The translations under genes were made by a program, and so were the position numbers. A stretch of 64,000 nucleotides of DNA, taken from IMG/VR virus record IMGVR_UViG_3300005347_000205, positions 1-64,000 of that record. One strand, 5' to 3'. The stretch comes from a virus. Below are positions 153 to 24,151 of the stretch, piece after piece; within the stretch, counting starts at the first letter, position 1, and each line of letters opens with the position of its first letter. The notes under the pieces were generated by a model. It did no database searches. It worked only from the letters and a program-made list of their open reading frames with translations, and was not told the DNA's origin.

Positions 153-194
153 AATCGATGGGCTTCGTAGACACCGATAGGGACCGCTGGGGAA

Positions 195-17265: not shown

Positions 17266-17513
17266 GCGCCCGAGCCACAGACACTAACTGGGACCCGTGG
17301 GGACCGCTGGGGAAAACCAGCGCACCCGCAACGCCAGCGCACCCGCAGCTCACCAGACACCAATAGGGACCGCTGGGGAAAAGCAGCTAGCCAGGCTCAG
17401 GGTTTCCCTATCGGTCCCTAGCCGTCTCTAGCGGTTGATTATGTTTCACTATTTAGTTGAATATGCGCGCCAGTTATGGTGTGATGATGAGAACACTAAG
17501 GAGTGATTCGATC

Positions 17514-18943: not shown

Positions 18944-19594
18944 ATGCCTCGCATATATGTCGCTTGCCTCGCGAGTTATAACAACGGCCGGTTGCATGGC
19001 GCCTGGATCGACTGCGACGGCAAAGACGCGGACGATATACAGCGCGAAGTAAATCAGATGCTGCGCACCTCACCCTATCCGAACGTAATGCGGCGCCAGT
19101 GCATCGATTGCGAATATATTCAGGATGACCGGGGCGCCGATGATACCTGCGATGAATGCCGCGGCGAACTGTCGCCCGCGTTCCCCTCCGCTGAAGAATA
19201 CGCGATTCACGACCATGAGGGCTTTAGCAATCTGATCGGCGAGTCCACGTCCTTCGAAGACGTTGCTCTGATCGCAGCGGCCCTAGATGGCGATAACGCA
19301 ATGGCGTTCAAATGGTTAATTTCAGACATTGGCATGTCCGCAGCGGATGCGGCTGATAAAGCTGACGAAGTCTGTATTTGGGAAGATGATCGCGGTCAGT
19401 GGGACGAAACAATGCTGGCGGAGTATGCGGAAAAATTCGCGAACGACTGTTATGATTTGCGCGAAATTCCCGAGACATTCCGTAATTATATCGATTGGGA
19501 AGCAATGGGCCGCGATATGCGAGCAGGCGGCGATATTACCCTGGCCGAAATTGACGGAAGGCGGTTCATTGTCACGAACCCGTCCGAATTCTGA
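18944..19594 (+). CDS. ardA: ArdA-like antirestriction DNA mimic with a Zn-ribbon insert
   Basis: RIYVACLASYNNGRLHGAWID, EEYAIHDHEGF, YIDWEAMGRD; very acidic. Confidence 0.88.
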   Translation: MPRIYVACLASYNNGRLHGAWIDCDGKDADDIQREVNQMLRTSPYPNVMRRQCIDCEYIQDDRGADDTCDECRGELSPAFPSAEEYAIHDHEGFSNLIGESTSFEDVALIAAALDGDNAMAFKWLISDIGMSAADAADKADEVCIWEDDRGQWDETMLAEYAEKFANDCYDLREIPETFRNYIDWEAMGRDMRAGGDITLAEIDGRRFIVTNPSEF

Positions 19595-21006: not shown

Positions 21007-21267
21007 GTGCGCCCCAGGTTGACCGACCCGTTCGCCGCGGCGGGCCGCTTTCCGCGATTGATCACGGTCAGTGGGGCGCCCGGTTCCCACATCTCTTCTG
21101 GCACGCCAGCTAGGGCGTGAACCGTACTGTGCCGCTGTGATTGCGGCGCGTGGGGAGGCTCTTCCCACCTCGACCGTGAAAACCGAAGACCGAGGCAGTG
21201 TGCGTCCATGGAGAGGCCGCCCCGGTTCGATTGGTCCCGATATATCCGAAACCACGCGTCCCTGCAA

Positions 21268-21369
21268 CCGGACTCCGGGACTCGAACCTCCTCGATTTAT
21301 TCCGGACTCCGGGACTCGAACCTCCTCGATCTATTCCAGACTCCGGGACTCGAACCTCCTCGATTTAGT
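21268..21369. repeat. 3 x 34-bp tandem repeat
   Basis: CCRGACTCCGGGACTCGAACCTCCTCGATYTAKT at 21268, 21302 and 21336. Confidence 0.95.
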
Positions 21370-21464
21370 TTCAACTTTTTGTTGACTTTCATGCTACGAC
21401 TCGATAGCAGCAGGTATGATGAACCGTTCGGAGCGCGGCTGCGGGCTACAAGAGGTGGTGAGAG

Positions 21465-21737
21465 ATGAGTGACGACACCCCCATGACCGAAGCCGAGCGC
21501 GGTTATTCGAAGGGCTACGCTGCCGGGCAGAGACGGATCGCAGCCAACATGACGAGGGAAGAACGACAGGCCGCCCGCGACGAATTCCGACGCGCCGTCT
21601 TTCTCGCGGTCATCCCGCACATTGGCGACGAATGGAAGCAGGGCGAAAAGCATATCAGTCTCGATGTCGCTGGCAAGGTCGAAATCGCATGGGACTTCGC
21701 TGACGAAGCCATGAAGAAAGCGAGGCTCCCATCATGA
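21465..21737 (+). CDS. Hypothetical protein
   Basis: GAGGTG RBS; ATGA-coupled to the next gene. Confidence 0.7.
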   Translation: MSDDTPMTEAERGYSKGYAAGQRRIAANMTREERQAARDEFRRAVFLAVIPHIGDEWKQGEKHISLDVAGKVEIAWDFADEAMKKARLPS

Positions 21738-22561
21738 CCGACCATGGCGACGAGTGCCCCTGTGATGAGCATGGGGAGACGGCTTACGGCATCGAGAAAT
21801 GCACGTGCGGCGACAAAGCCTGTAACACCTATTGGCTGACCGGCATCGGTAGTTTTTGTCAGGGATCGGGCTTCAAGAAAGATGAGGCGGAACAAATTGT
21901 CGCCGCCCTCCGCCAAGGTGAAGTCGACCGGGCGCGGGTTGTGGAGTTGGAGGCTCTGTGCCTGGCCCTCGAATGTGAGGTGAGCAATAGTGCTGCTGAC
22001 AAGGCCGCAGCCGAGGCCCAACTAGCCGAGGTGACGAAGGAGCTTGAGGAGGCGCGGGCCAAGATGCGGATGATCGTCTCGCACGCATCCGGTGGATGGA
22101 CACAGGACATCGAACAATCGACCAACGACATCTGTGTGCAAATCAGCGCCAACCGCAACACGGTCTACGAAGCTGGTATCGAAAAGGGACGCAAGGAAGC
22201 CGAATCCCGCCTCAGCGAGGCGGTTAAGGCGTTGGAGGATATCGCCAGCGGTCGAGCGTTCCGTCAGCAGCGGTTCGCCGAGGACGATGACGCAGACTAT
22301 TTTTTGCGAGCGCAGCGCTCCGTGCAGAAACTCGCAGCCGAGGTCGTGAAGTCGACCACGCTCTCTCAGCCCGAGGGTGGGGAGGAAGCATCTTATACCG
22401 GGTCCGACTGGCGGCTGCACGCGCAGCAGCATCAGGCAGGGTCGGAGACTGGAAGTGAGCAGCAGAGCGGCCATGGTAACGCTTCTGCCAGCATGGACAG
22501 TTTGGAGGGTTCGAATCCCTCTCCCGGTGCCCATCCCGGCGATGCAGGGAGCGAGGGGTGA
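21734..22561 (+). CDS. Cys-rich N-terminus / coiled-coil hypothetical protein
   Basis: CTCGDKAC motif, coiled coil; low-complexity tail overlapping a tRNA-like fold. Confidence 0.7.
   Translation: MTDHGDECPCDEHGETAYGIEKCTCGDKACNTYWLTGIGSFCQGSGFKKDEAEQIVAALRQGEVDRARVVELEALCLALECEVSNSAADKAAAEAQLAEVTKELEEARAKMRMIVSHASGGWTQDIEQSTNDICVQISANRNTVYEAGIEKGRKEAESRLSEAVKALEDIASGRAFRQQRFAEDDDADYFLRAQRSVQKLAAEVVKSTTLSQPEGGEEASYTGSDWRLHAQQHQAGSETGSEQQSGHGNASASMDSLEGSNPSPGAHPGDAGSEG
22396..22533 (+). ncRNA. Putative tRNA-like structured RNA (not a canonical tRNA)
   Basis: TACCGGG/CCCGGTG closing stem + C-CCA; GGAGGG-TTCGAAT-CCCTCT T-arm; two long internal arms. Confidence 0.5.
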
Positions 22562-22749
22562 TGATCTGTTATCGTGACATGACGTTCTGTGCCGCTCAAT
22601 GCGCCACGAAAGAATGCCCCCGCCAGTTGAACGAACGGCAACGCGAAGGTGCGCGCAAATGGTGGTCACACGATCCCAATAATGCACCGATCGCGGTTGC
22701 GGATTTCCACCATAACTGCCCCGATTACGCACCGGAGAGCCGGATATGA
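22558..22749 (+). CDS. Small Cys-rich hypothetical protein
   Basis: CYRDMTFC..C...CPR; overlapping start and stop codons. Confidence 0.7.
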   Translation: MMICYRDMTFCAAQCATKECPRQLNERQREGARKWWSHDPNNAPIAVADFHHNCPDYAPESRI

Positions 22750-23435
22750 CCAACACCCCTGATCTCACTGTGACGCAGGAGGCGAGAGAGCAGATCATGC
22801 GTATCATCGGAAGTGTCTGTTATTCCGAGCGCTCGATCCCGCAGGCTACTGATGACGTTATAGCCACCATCCCCTCCCGCCCAGAAGCGCAAGCCAGGGA
22901 ATTGGTCGAGCGGTTGCGGACACAGGCTGACAGCGCAGATGAAGCCTTCATGTCGCGAATGGGCATCACCTCAGTCGAGGCAGCAACAATGCGTCAGGCC
23001 GCCGACCTGATCGAAAGCTTGAACCGCAGCAAGGCGCAGGTTTTGGAGCGCCACAGCCTCGCACCGCGCGACGGCGGGGAGGATCAGGACACGCGCGACA
23101 GCATAATCGCCGGCATGTGCATGACCTGGGATCACAGCTTCGGCCTGATGTCCGGCGACAAACAGAATGCGCTTTGGTCGAGCATGAGCCAGCTATACGA
23201 GCATGATGTAAAGCCTGCGATCGACAGGGCCCTAGCCACCCTCGACCGGGGGAAGGCGCAGGTTCGGGATGGGGCGCTGGAGGAATGTGCCTTGGCCTGG
23301 GAGGCGTTCAAAGGGCCATATCTCAAGCGCTTCGGCGGTTGGGGTGATGGCGCCGCGATCGACGCCATGCAGACGCTCAACCGCGTTTTGATGCCGATCT
23401 CGACCGAAATCTGCGCACGCCGCGAGGGGAAATAG
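22746..23435 (+). CDS. Hypothetical protein (mosaic early-gene type)
   Basis: ATGA-coupled ORF. Confidence 0.7.
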   Translation: MTNTPDLTVTQEAREQIMRIIGSVCYSERSIPQATDDVIATIPSRPEAQARELVERLRTQADSADEAFMSRMGITSVEAATMRQAADLIESLNRSKAQVLERHSLAPRDGGEDQDTRDSIIAGMCMTWDHSFGLMSGDKQNALWSSMSQLYEHDVKPAIDRALATLDRGKAQVRDGALEECALAWEAFKGPYLKRFGGWGDGAAIDAMQTLNRVLMPISTEICARREGK

Positions 23436-23436
23436 G

Positions 23437-23643
23437 ATGAAGGTCACAAGGCTCAAGCGCGGCTACCGCATCAACCTGTCCGACGCTGAGTTCGAAGCGC
23501 TTGAACATCTCGTCATGCTTGGCAAAAGCGACATGGAAGGCGCGGATGAACAGCTTGATTTTCTCAGCCATCGAGCCCGCCATGCCATGGAAAAGTATTT
23601 CCTGTCAGGCGACTGTCTGGCAATTGATGAGGATCGGCGATGA
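23437..23643 (+). CDS. Hypothetical protein
   Basis: GAGG RBS; in operon. Confidence 0.65.
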   Translation: MKVTRLKRGYRINLSDAEFEALEHLVMLGKSDMEGADEQLDFLSHRARHAMEKYFLSGDCLAIDEDRR

Positions 23644-23725
23644 CCCCGCCCGATCTAGCCGCCTTGGTGCGGGGGCTCAAAGCCGACGAGATCAACTTTC
23701 TCAACCGCGTTGCCCAGGAACCGTC

Positions 23726-24151
23726 ATGAGACTCGCAGTCACAGGCTCCCGCCAACACGGTCACGAGCGCCGGGTATTTGAAGCGCTCGATATCATTCAC
23801 GCTGCAGAACCTGTCGACGTACTGATCAGCGGACACTGCCCAAGCACTCGCTATAAGCCACGATCGTTCGACATGATATGCGAAGATTGGGCGCACGCCC
23901 GCGGCATCCCAGTCGATGAGTATCCAGCCGACTGGGACAATATCGATGCGATGCCGTGCCGAATCGAGATCAACGCGCGCGGAAGGCCGTACAACAAGCT
24001 CGCCGGCATGAACCGAAACCACAGGATGCTGATGCTCGGAGTCCCACACCTACTGGCAGTCGGTCCGATCAGGGGCCCAGGCACCGAGCATTGCCGATCC
24101 CTCGCACTGAGCCGAACCTTCGAGATCCCGATCATCGACATCGACCTGTGA
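23726..24151 (+). CDS. SLOG/YspA (DUF2493)-like protein
   Basis: LAVTGSR, LISG, WA..RGIPV..YPADWD, AG..RN..ML, GT. Confidence 0.8.
   Translation: MRLAVTGSRQHGHERRVFEALDIIHAAEPVDVLISGHCPSTRYKPRSFDMICEDWAHARGIPVDEYPADWDNIDAMPCRIEINARGRPYNKLAGMNRNHRMLMLGVPHLLAVGPIRGPGTEHCRSLALSRTFEIPIIDIDL

What the first reader, a model, noticed from the sequence alone, without database searches (positions are those of the whole stretch)
22396..22533. 138-nt tRNA-like RNA hidden in the tail of a CDS
Seen: acceptor-like stem TACCGGG (22396-402) / CCCGGTG (22523-29) followed by C-CCA. T-arm GGAGGG-TTCGAAT-CCCTCT (22504-22). Arm 1 is TCCGAC/GTCGGA enclosing GCTGC-ACGC-GCAGC. Arm 2 is GACTG/CAGTT enclosing GCAGAGCG/CGCTTCTGC. 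It is too long for a tRNA and has no normal D or anticodon arm. The overlapping protein tail (…LEGSNPSPGA…) looks like read-through. Inference: a processed tRNA-mimic ncRNA, such as a decoy for anticodon nucleases or an RNase P/Z processing signal in the early transcript. It could also be a decayed tRNA.
Basis: partly seen in the sequence, partly recalled or inferred. Interest (0 to 1): 0.7.

Follow-up and report, generated by a model that had tools for sequence, protein, structure and literature searches.

The report
tRNA top-half mimic in phage operon
A 145-base insert in an early operon of a soil phage has ends that fold like the upper half of a tRNA, but it is not a tRNA gene, has no known relatives, and may be either a processed RNA signal or an accident of recombination.

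Summary
Positions 22396-22533 carry a 7-bp acceptor-like stem, a canonical T arm (GAGGG-TTCGAAT-CCCTC) and an unpaired C-CCA. Shuffles of the window give this combination about 0.0014 times per window.

It is not a tRNA or tmRNA. ARAGORN and Rfam find nothing beyond the 17-nt T arm. The 100-nt interior resembles real tRNA bottom halves no more than shuffled sequence does.

New here: the element almost exactly fills a discrete 145-nt cassette (22389-22533). It sits between two flanks that related phages conserve. In that slot one relative carries a 219-nt gene for a small membrane protein, and another carries 90 nt coding a zinc-finger-like peptide.

The cassette removed the upstream gene's stop codon. 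The 275-aa CDS therefore reads through it into the last 8 codons of the lost gene. The cassette shows no codon periodicity, and its peptide has no homologue among 1.84 billion representative proteins.

No second copy, relative, covariation or RNA data exist. My best reading, at moderate-low confidence, is a non-coding tRNA-derived module that would be an RNase P / CCA-end substrate. Chance and a functionless tRNA-fragment relic remain serious rivals.

The parts
22396..22533 (+). 138-nt tRNA-like element: four-way junction made of an acceptor-like stem, two long inner arms and a T arm, with a C-CCA tail
   Evidence: Sequence; MFE structure; pair probabilities in context
22396..22402 (+). 5' strand of the acceptor-like stem (TACCGGG)
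   Evidence: pairs with 22523-22529, probabilities 0.74-1.0
22403..22503 (+). Interior of about 100 nt (two long CAG-rich arms), unrelated to tRNA D or anticodon arms
   Evidence: Best local alignment score against 141 tRNA bottom halves is 21, versus a null of 21.1 +- 2.5. A 20-mer from it has 0 hits in IMG/VR
22505..22521 (+). Canonical T arm GAGGG-TTCGAAT-CCCTC, with an extra G.T pair at 22504/22522
   Evidence: the only part that Rfam models match. From the T arm to 22527 it is identical over 23 nt to the ends of real tRNAs
22523..22533 (+). 3' strand of the acceptor-like stem (CCCGGTG) followed by unpaired C-CCA
22389..22533 (+). 145-nt cassette: the stretch that is not homologous to relatives. 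It replaces a 219-nt gene in L003 and a 90-nt coding stretch in L126
   Evidence: Alignment A3; sequences of L003 and L126; contig joint 22388->22538 in run X8
22361..22388 (+). Left conserved flank, ending in the Shine-Dalgarno-like GAGGGTGGGGAGGAAG. In relatives it serves as the ribosome-binding site of whichever gene occupies the slot
   Evidence: Identical in L003 and L002; 14 nt shared with L126
22534..22561 (+). Right conserved flank: the last 8 codons (PGDAGSEG) and stop of the gene lost from the slot. It also holds the ribosome-binding region of the next gene
21734..22561 (+). 275-aa CDS of unknown function. Residues about 220-267 are the cassette read through
22561..22749 (+). Downstream 62-aa Cys-rich protein gene. 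Its ATG overlaps the upstream TGA. It is conserved in relatives

Best explanation
The 138 nt are, together with 7 leading bases, a discrete 145-nt cassette (22389-22533). It was dropped into a hypervariable slot of a tightly packed early operon of a chi-like soil siphovirus. Its two ends form the top half of a tRNA: a 7-bp acceptor stem stacked on a canonical T arm, followed by an unpaired N-CCA. Its 100-nt middle has nothing to do with tRNA.

I read it as a non-coding module of tRNA descent, not a tRNA gene and not a genuine protein domain. The swap that brought it in removed the upstream gene's stop codon and the small gene that relatives carry there. The upstream ORF therefore now runs through the cassette to the old stop.

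Inferred mechanism. The element has no promoter or terminator of its own, so it is transcribed within the operon mRNA starting near 21400.
- Its acceptor/T-arm stack has a U at -1 and an RCC tail. These are the recognition set of bacterial RNase P, 3' exonuclease trimming, the CCA-adding enzyme and the T-loop modification enzymes.
- The transcript would then be cut at 22396/22397 and trimmed to the CCA.
- This would release a stable RNA of about 138 nt and split the operon message. The upstream cistron would be left without a stop codon.

Shown: the sequence features, the cassette boundaries, the read-through, and the absence of coding signal. Inferred: transcription, folding in vivo, cleavage, and any benefit to the phage.
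For: 1. All top-half features are present. The combination is expected about 0.0014 times per window.
2. The stems stay strongly predicted in every context folded: 0.89-1.0 for the inner six acceptor pairs, 1.0 for the T stem.
3. The left flank is identical to L003 up to 22388, 7 nt before the stem. The right flank resumes at 22534, the base after CCA. A contig of a relative in run X8 joins 22388 to 22538.
4. Three different cassettes occupy the same slot: 145, 219 and 90 nt.
5. The cassette shows no codon periodicity. GC at codon positions 1/2/3 is 0.63/0.59/0.63, against 0.65/0.44/0.71 for the conserved part of the CDS. Only 8.6% of 374 genuine-gene windows show so small a GC3-GC2 difference.
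6. Its 47-aa translation matches nothing but itself among 1.84 billion representative proteins.
7. Homologues of the CDS stop at EGGEE(GR) or close by.
8. The T arm plus acceptor is a real tRNA top half. It is 23/23 identical to more than 100 tRNA genes. A phage tRNA-Met (L145) has the same T arm and the ACCGGG/CCCGG acceptor.
9. Non-tRNA RNase P substrates embedded in operon mRNAs and phage regulatory RNAs are established (PMC4919922, passages and reference list read).
Against: - It is a singleton. 0 of 18 loci with the downstream gene's homologue, plus L002 and L003, carry a tRNA. My T-arm scan covered only the 18 loci and found nothing upstream of the gene.
- The covariance model of the element finds only itself and the L145 tRNA-Met.
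- No covariation test is possible.
- The folding energy is ordinary (z = -0.89).
- In the standard tRNA register the tail is G-CCC-A and pair 7:66 is a T.T mismatch.
- The frame through the cassette is open and joins the old C-terminus in frame, as a real coding fusion would. A second + frame and a minus-strand frame are open too.
- Translation through the element would compete with folding.
- Across a scan of about 250,000 windows, a few hundred chance motifs of this kind are expected.
Confidence: 0.35

Rival explanations
1. Chance resemblance. The cassette is just another variable linker or filler in a recombination-prone slot. It is GC-rich and CAG-rich, and it happens to contain a T-arm-like hairpin and complementary ends. 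It has no RNA-level role.
For: - T-arm-like hairpins occur 0.5 times per shuffled window. An adjoining 7-bp stem follows in about 1 in 10 of those.
- The scan that produced the finding covered very many windows.
- The folding energy is not unusual.
- The CCA is exact in only one of two registers.
- The interior shows no tRNA likeness.
- There is no second copy or relative.
Against: - The full combination was seen in 3 of 2200 shuffles.
- The motif's two ends fall within 7 nt and 0 nt of the two independently mapped cassette boundaries. Chance does not predict this.
- The T loop and the G53-C61-type closing pair are fully canonical.
Confidence: 0.3
2. Functionless relic of a tRNA gene's 3' end. 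About 30 nt (T arm, acceptor 3' strand, CCA), of the kind that integrating elements duplicate at their attachment sites, was captured with about 110 nt of neighbouring foreign DNA by illegitimate recombination. The matching 5' strand is coincidence.
For: - tRNA 3' fragments left by integrating elements are pervasive (PMC9897764, passages read).
- The record carries a tyrosine-integrase-like gene at 71295-72509.
- The cassette ends exactly after CCA, where attachment-core identity typically ends.
- A near-repeat, TCCCGGTG / TCCCGGCG, sits at the right junction. That is the kind of microhomology seen at illegitimate joints.
- The interior is unrelated to tRNA.
Against: - No genome among 185,579 species has the 24-mer or 26-mer with this discriminator.
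- The integrase is 49 kb away along the record.
- There is no second copy in the record, even allowing 3 mismatches.
- The 5' strand would have to pair 7/7 by chance (about 1 in 10) and also sit at the left edge of the cassette.
Confidence: 0.2
3. A genuine coding extension. The 48 codons are a selected, disordered Ser/Gly/Gln-rich C-terminal tail of the 275-aa protein, and the RNA shape is irrelevant.
For: - The frame is open and enters the old C-terminus (PGDAGSEG, stop) in frame.
- The stop overlaps the next gene's ATG.
- L126 also has an in-frame coding cassette in the slot.
- The only other cluster member keeps the tail identical, with 274/275 residues identical overall.
Against: - GC by codon position is flat.
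- The peptide has no homologue in 1.84 billion representatives.
- Homologues end before it.
- Other frames through the cassette are open as well.
Confidence: 0.1

Closest known systems
C4 antisense RNA of phages P1/P7, and other non-tRNA RNase P substrates inside operon mRNAs
   Same: A small structured RNA is embedded in a phage operon transcript without its own promoter. Its tRNA-like acceptor end makes it an RNase P substrate (Hartmann et al. 1995, as cited in PMC4919922; passages and reference list read). Details of the C4 structure are recalled.
   Different: - No Rfam family matched at E <= 10 apart from the T arm.
- No antisense target longer than 12 nt exists in the record.
- The element here lies inside an open reading frame.
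tmRNA (tRNA-like domain)
   Same: The top half of a tRNA (acceptor plus T arm plus CCA) is kept, while the bottom half is replaced by other RNA.
   Different: - ARAGORN's tmRNA search finds nothing, even at 70% thresholds.
- Rfam gives only 9.6 bits, on the T arm.
- Pair 3:70 is C-G, not the G.U used for alanine charging (the charging rule is recalled).
- The element is far shorter and has no tag reading frame of its own.
Bacterial Y RNA YrlA (tRNA-mimicking, some phage-encoded)
   Same: It is a non-coding RNA with a T arm and an acceptor-like stem. The Mycobacterium smegmatis form is cut by RNase P and receives CCA (PMC4201824, passages read).
   Different: - In YrlA the acceptor-like stem is an internal hairpin between the T and D arms, and a D arm and a Ro-binding motif are present.
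- Here the acceptor is formed by the two ends and there is no D arm.
- There is no TROVE/Ro60 gene in the record.
- There is no Rfam match.
Phage-encoded tRNAs that counter tRNA-targeting defences
   Same: A tRNA-type RNA carried as a small cassette among phage genes (PMC10264068; search listing and start of abstract only).
   Different: Those are complete, decodable tRNAs. This element has no anticodon arm and cannot decode.
tRNA gene fragments at attachment sites of integrating elements
   Same: A stand-alone 3' part of a tRNA gene ending at CCA (PMC9897764, passages read).
   Different: - It is not at an element's end and not next to the integrase.
- There is no full-length partner and no second copy.
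- A matching 5' acceptor strand is present.

Membership tests
tRNA | Cloverleaf of 70-95 nt with D arm and anticodon arm, recognised by tRNA finders | tested here: not met
   ARAGORN finds 0 genes in the window and the whole record. Only at 60% thresholds with a forced 49-nt 'intron' does it draw one, alongside junk calls on the other strand. No Rfam tRNA match at E <= 10. The interior is not tRNA-like.
tRNA | Canonical T arm (5-bp stem closed by G-C, loop TTCRANY) directly followed by the acceptor 3' strand, discriminator and CCA | tested here: met
   It is 23/23 identical to real tRNA ends. Caveat: in the standard register the tail reads G-CCC-A.
tmRNA | Detected by the ARAGORN tmRNA search or Rfam tmRNA models; G3.U70 pair; tag reading frame | tested here: not met
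   (9.6 bits against a gathering score of 84). Pair 3:70 is C-G.
YrlA / Y RNA | Rfam model match; neighbouring Ro60 (TROVE) gene; internal acceptor-like hairpin between T and D arms | tested here: not met
   No match. TROVE absent from the record. Topology differs.
C4-type phage antisense RNA | Loops complementary to a target in the same operon; family model match | tested here: not met
   Longest antisense match in the record is 12 nt: four such against about 1 expected (my own estimate, no shuffle control), in CAG-rich sequence. No Rfam match. That Rfam holds a C4 family is recalled, not checked.
Attachment-site tRNA fragment | Identity to the 3' end of a host tRNA gene; position at an element's end or beside its integrase; second copy as a direct repeat | tested here: inconclusive
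   24-mer and 26-mer: 0 of 185,579 species genomes. The host is unknown and its genome may not be held. The integrase-like gene is 49 kb away. There is a single copy in the record.
RNase P substrate (functional class, not a sequence family) | Acceptor/T-stem coaxial stack of about 12 bp, T loop, 3' RCC(A), cleavage in vitro or in vivo | not testable with these tools
   The structural determinants are present in the sequence. Cleavage cannot be tested here, and no RNA run is listed.
Miniature mobile element (MITE-like) | Several copies; terminal inverted repeats; target-site duplication | tested here: not met
   There is one copy in the record, and none in the other collections searched: the phage records by blastn, IMG/VR only by exact 20- to 26-nt words. 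The 7-nt complementary ends could pass as inverted repeats, but no duplication flanks the cassette.

The most novel reading that the evidence does not exclude
A phage carries a 'half-tRNA': a self-contained module with only the acceptor/T-arm top half of a tRNA on a novel 100-nt body, embedded in frame in an early operon. RNase P and CCA-end maturation cut it out. This splits the message and leaves the upstream cistron without a stop codon. The released RNA has an uncharged CCA end and serves as a sponge for host defences or enzymes that act on tRNA acceptor ends, not on anticodons. This would be a new class of phage tRNA mimic, distinct from whole phage tRNAs, tmRNA, YrlA and C4.
Probability: 0.12. 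Interest if true: 0.75.

Novelty: new variant of a known kind. Interest (0 to 1): 0.4.

Why it matters
Phage tRNAs are now seen as counter-measures to tRNA-targeting defences, and tRNA-like ends are known handles for RNase P. If this element is real, it would show that the top half alone can be carried as a module inside a reading frame. It could then serve to cut an operon message or to decoy enzymes that act on the CCA end.

The mapped slot has three unrelated cassettes between the same two ribosome-binding-site flanks. It is a clean example of how such modules are swapped in this phage group. If the resemblance is chance or a relic, the case is a useful warning: a T arm plus complementary ends in GC-rich phage DNA is not enough to call an RNA gene.

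Tried and rejected
**Close relatives of the 275-aa protein**
- IMG/VR, GTDB genomes and JGI metagenomes gave none by word patterns.
- The neighbouring 229-aa protein gave none.

**DNA similarity**
- blastn of 21400-23500 against 50,697 phage records gave no match.
- The element against plasmids matched only the T arm, 22-27 nt.

**RNA evidence**
- No RNA holder is listed among 9 runs, all of them rhizosphere metagenome DNA.
- Laying contigs of the four low-share runs showed no sequence variants. It showed only fragments of the same phage and one relative's contig with joints.

**Population variation**
- The only other member of the protein cluster differs at one residue, outside the tail.

**Decayed tRNA**
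- Rejected, because the interior scores at the shuffle mean against 141 tRNA bottom halves.

**Antisense regulator**
- Rejected for lack of any match above 12 nt.

**Own promoter or terminator**
- None found near the element.

**Covariance model**
- A single-sequence model found no further copy in 23 sources or 4 related virus records.
- L002's record is not held as a whole and was not searched that way.

**Calls that were not available**
- Kin genomes of a virus record and earlier findings of the scan were not available.

**Supplementary tables not seen**
- Those of PMC4201824 (phage YrlA list) and PMC9897764 (fragment lists) could bear on the comparison.

Full report
**What the window is**

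The window is the first 64 kb of a 72,509-bp IMG/VR virus record, classed there as a provirus, with 59% G+C. The portal protein is 51-55% identical to those of chi-like siphoviruses of Achromobacter, Rhizobium/Sinorhizobium, Ruegeria and Synechococcus.

Nine runs hold the DNA, all rhizosphere metagenomes, and none is on record as RNA.

The element lies in a run of short, overlapping + strand genes: 21465-21737, 21734-22561, 22561-22749, 22746-23435, 23437-23643 and onward. ArdA (18944-19594) lies upstream and a YspA/SLOG-family gene (within ORF 23501-24151) lies downstream. No promoter-like or terminator-like site lies next to the element.

**The observation**

- A 7-pair acceptor-like stem joins 22396-22402 to 22523-22529.
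- An unpaired C-CCA follows at 22530-22533.
- The T arm has a fully canonical loop, TTCGAAT, and a G-C closing pair (22505-22521).
- Two long inner arms complete the structure.

RNAfold gives this four-way junction as the minimum-energy structure. The acceptor and T stems keep pair probabilities of 0.97-1.0 in contexts up to 22000-22950, and 0.89-0.97 for the acceptor in the 22389-22540 context.

The energy itself is ordinary: z = -0.89, and 36 of 200 shuffles fold at least as well.

I counted the motif directly.
- The window has one T-arm-type hairpin, this one.
- Shuffles give 0.50-0.56 per window.
- They give 0.05 with an adjoining 7-bp stem.
- They give 3 of 2200 with N-CCA as well.
- Of 123 real tRNA ends, 91 pass the stem rule.

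This is unusual for one window. It is not beyond what a scan of about 250,000 windows produces by chance.

There are two registers.
- In the standard tRNA register the acceptor has six pairs plus a T.T mismatch, the discriminator is G, and the tail is CCC-A.
- The exact CCA requires a 6-bp T stem.

**Not a tRNA, tmRNA or known RNA family**

- ARAGORN finds no tRNA or tmRNA in the window or in the whole record.
- Only at 60% thresholds with a forced intron does ARAGORN draw a 'tRNA'. It draws equally poor ones on the other strand.
- At gathering thresholds, Rfam finds only a skipping-rope RNA 1.2 kb upstream on the other strand.
- At E <= 10 over 22200-22750, the only matches touching the element's stems are two hits to the bare 17-nt T arm. 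A 12.9-bit Xoo5 hit (E 6.6, gathering 50) on the other strand overlaps 22456-22577; the fourth, a fluoride-riboswitch hit, lies outside it.
- The interior (22403-22503) has a best local score of 21 against the bottom halves of 141 real tRNAs. Shuffles give 21.1 +- 2.5, and 52% of them score at least as high.

So 'decayed tRNA' in the sense of eroded D and anticodon arms is not supported.

The top half, by contrast, is a real tRNA top half.
- The 18-mer TTCGAATCCCTCTCCCGG is the 3' end of tRNA genes in at least 120 genomes.
- One Actinomycetota tRNA-Leu matches 24 nt.
- An IMG/VR contig carries a tRNA-Met with the same T arm and an ACCGGG/CCCGG acceptor.
- No genome has the 24-mer or 26-mer with the window's discriminator.

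**The new result: the element is a cassette**

The 275-aa CDS has few relatives: 6 besides itself among 5.8 billion clustered proteins. Three of them run out at or just after the motif ...QPEGGEE, while P0006 runs on past it with an unrelated tail.

I recovered DNA for three relatives.

*L003, a 2,064-nt contig.*
- The homologue ends ...LSQPEGGEEGR.
- An 80-aa membrane-protein gene follows, ending ...SNPGDAASEG.
- Then comes a near-identical copy of the window's 62-aa Cys-rich gene.
- Its DNA is identical to the window up to 22388 (...GAGGGTGGGGAGGAAG) and again from 22534 (TCCCGGCGATGC...).
- Between these points, 145 nt of the window face 219 unrelated nt of L003.

*L126, a 39.9-kb IMG/VR record.*
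- The same flanks enclose 90 nt that code two CxxCxGxG motifs in frame.

*L002.*
- The left motif occurs twice, 102 nt apart, around yet another insert.
- It then acts as the ribosome-binding site of a different gene.

A contig of a relative in run X8 also joins 22388 to 22538. It has 26 letters on the shorter side, and the content between the two points is not known.

The slot is thus bounded by two ribosome-binding-site regions and holds different cassettes in different phages. The window's cassette (22389-22533) is the tRNA-like element plus 7 leading bases, and it ends on the A of CCA. This coincidence of boundaries played no part in how the finding was picked. It is the main reason I do not dismiss the motif as chance.

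**The read-through**

In L003 and L002 the upstream gene's stop lies just inside the slot. In the window that stop is gone. The frame stays open for 48 codons and enters the last 8 codons and the stop of the lost gene, and that stop overlaps the next ATG.
- The cassette has flat GC by codon position (0.63/0.59/0.63), against 0.65/0.44/0.71 in the conserved part.
- Its GC3-GC2 difference is 0.04. Genuine-gene windows give 0.24 +- 0.13 and out-of-frame windows -0.12 +- 0.13. Only 8.6% of 374 gene windows are as low.
- A second + frame and a minus frame are also open.
- The 47-aa translation matches only its own protein among 1.84 billion representatives.

**No relatives of the element**

- There is one copy in the record, even allowing 3 mismatches.
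- There are no exact 26-mer, 24-mer or interior 20-mer hits.
- There are no blastn hits in phage or plasmid records beyond the T arm.
- ARAGORN finds no tRNA in 18 loci with homologues of the downstream gene, or in L002 and L003. My T-arm scan, run on the 18 loci only, found nothing upstream of the gene. One loose T-arm-like hairpin lies 2.3 kb away in L134.
- A single-sequence covariance model finds only itself and the L145 tRNA-Met at 22 bits.
- The only other member of the protein cluster has an identical tail.

Covariation cannot be assessed. The searches of the large collections were exact-word scans, so diverged copies would be missed.

**How it most likely works**

*Shown.*
- A discrete, non-coding-looking cassette has ends that make a tRNA top half.
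- It lies inside an operon without its own transcription signals.
- It is read through by the upstream ORF.

*Inferred from established knowledge of RNase P substrates.*
- The recognition set is a coaxial acceptor/T stack, a T loop, a 3' RCC(A) and a U at -1. Non-tRNA substrates include operon mRNAs and phage regulatory RNAs (PMC4919922, passages). M. smegmatis YrlA is cleaved by RNase P and receives CCA (PMC4201824, passages).
- On that basis the transcript would be cut at 22396/22397 and trimmed to CCA. This would free an RNA of about 138 nt and leave the upstream cistron without a stop codon.
- What the free RNA would do is open. There is no antisense target, no Ro60 partner, and no charging identity that I can recognise.

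My probabilities are:

| Reading | Probability |
|---|---|
| Functional or processable tRNA-derived module | about 0.35 |
| Chance | about 0.3 |
| Functionless relic of a tRNA 3' end captured by illegitimate recombination | about 0.2 |
| Selected coding tail | about 0.1 |

The relic reading rests on the near-repeat TCCCGGTG / TCCCGGCG at the right joint, and on an integrase-like gene that lies 49 kb away.

**Comparison with known systems**

It works most like the RNase P-processed C4 RNA of P1/P7 and like the tRNA-like domain of tmRNA. It is a member of neither, nor of YrlA. Model matches, the G3.U70 pair, the neighbouring Ro60 gene and an antisense target were all tested and not met.

It differs from phage tRNAs that counter anticodon nucleases (PMC10264068, listing and start of abstract only) in having no anticodon arm.

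It differs from attachment-site fragments (PMC9897764, passages) in its position, in being a single copy, and in having a paired 5' strand.

**Verdict**

The feature is real and the cassette is discrete. It is not a tRNA gene, and its function is untested. It is interesting mainly as a candidate 'half-tRNA' module and as a clean cassette slot. Without a second copy or RNA data, it remains a moderate-interest lead.

Noticed in passing
window 21063-21178 (- strand): Skipping-rope RNA (Rfam RF02924) at 49.5 bits against a gathering score of 36.7, E = 9.3e-09. It is the only Rfam family above threshold in the window, and lies just upstream of, and divergent from, the operon that holds the element.
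   Followed up: no
window 21268-21369: Three tandem 34-nt repeats (94-100% alike), each containing GGGACTCGAACC. They lie between the skipping-rope RNA and the start of the + strand operon. They may be binding sites for a regulator.
   Followed up: partly
window 2616, 9592, 13302, 25762, 34337, 39994, 43529, 48945, 55704, 62569 (and nearby): A 19-27-nt motif of the type TTCAACCTTATGGTGAAAT / TTGAATATCACTATTATAGTGAAATTA recurs at about ten mostly intergenic sites on the + strand. A related TTCAACTTTTTGTTGA lies at 21371, ahead of the operon. It is probably a phage promoter or operator motif.
   Followed up: no
window 169-194 and 17355-17380 (weaker copies at 17279-17314): A 26-nt direct repeat, AGACACC(G/A)ATAGGGACCGCTGGGGAA, 96% identical, 17.2 kb apart. 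It brackets the replication-gene block.
   Followed up: no
window 22361-22388 and 22534-22561; L003 1641-1668 and 1888-1915; L126 2709-2696 and 2605-2578; L002 3492-3506 and 3594-3608: A cassette slot bounded by two ribosome-binding-site regions holds unrelated inserts in related phages: 145, 219 and 90 nt. In L002 the left motif is duplicated around a further insert. This looks like module exchange by recombination at conserved translation-initiation sequences.
   Followed up: partly
window 21429-21455; L126 about 2735-2709 (- strand): The leader just before the first gene of the window's operon (CGGAGCGCGGCTGCGGGCTACAAGAGG) recurs in L126 directly in front of the slot motif. L126 therefore seems to lack the 90-aa and 275-aa genes and joins the leader to the cassette.
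   Followed up: partly
record G000 71295-72509 (- strand), outside the window: A tyrosine-integrase-like ORF (PF00589, 26.8 bits; 27.4 with its neighbours in the frame, against a cut-off of 27.1) runs off the right end of the record. The phage is otherwise chi-like, and that group is usually thought of as lytic (the lytic habit is recalled).
   Followed up: no
L126 2796-2578 (- strand): A 72-aa ORF has two CxxCxGxG motifs (DnaJ-type zinc-finger-like). It is fused between the leader-derived sequence and the conserved PGDAGSEG end.
   Followed up: no
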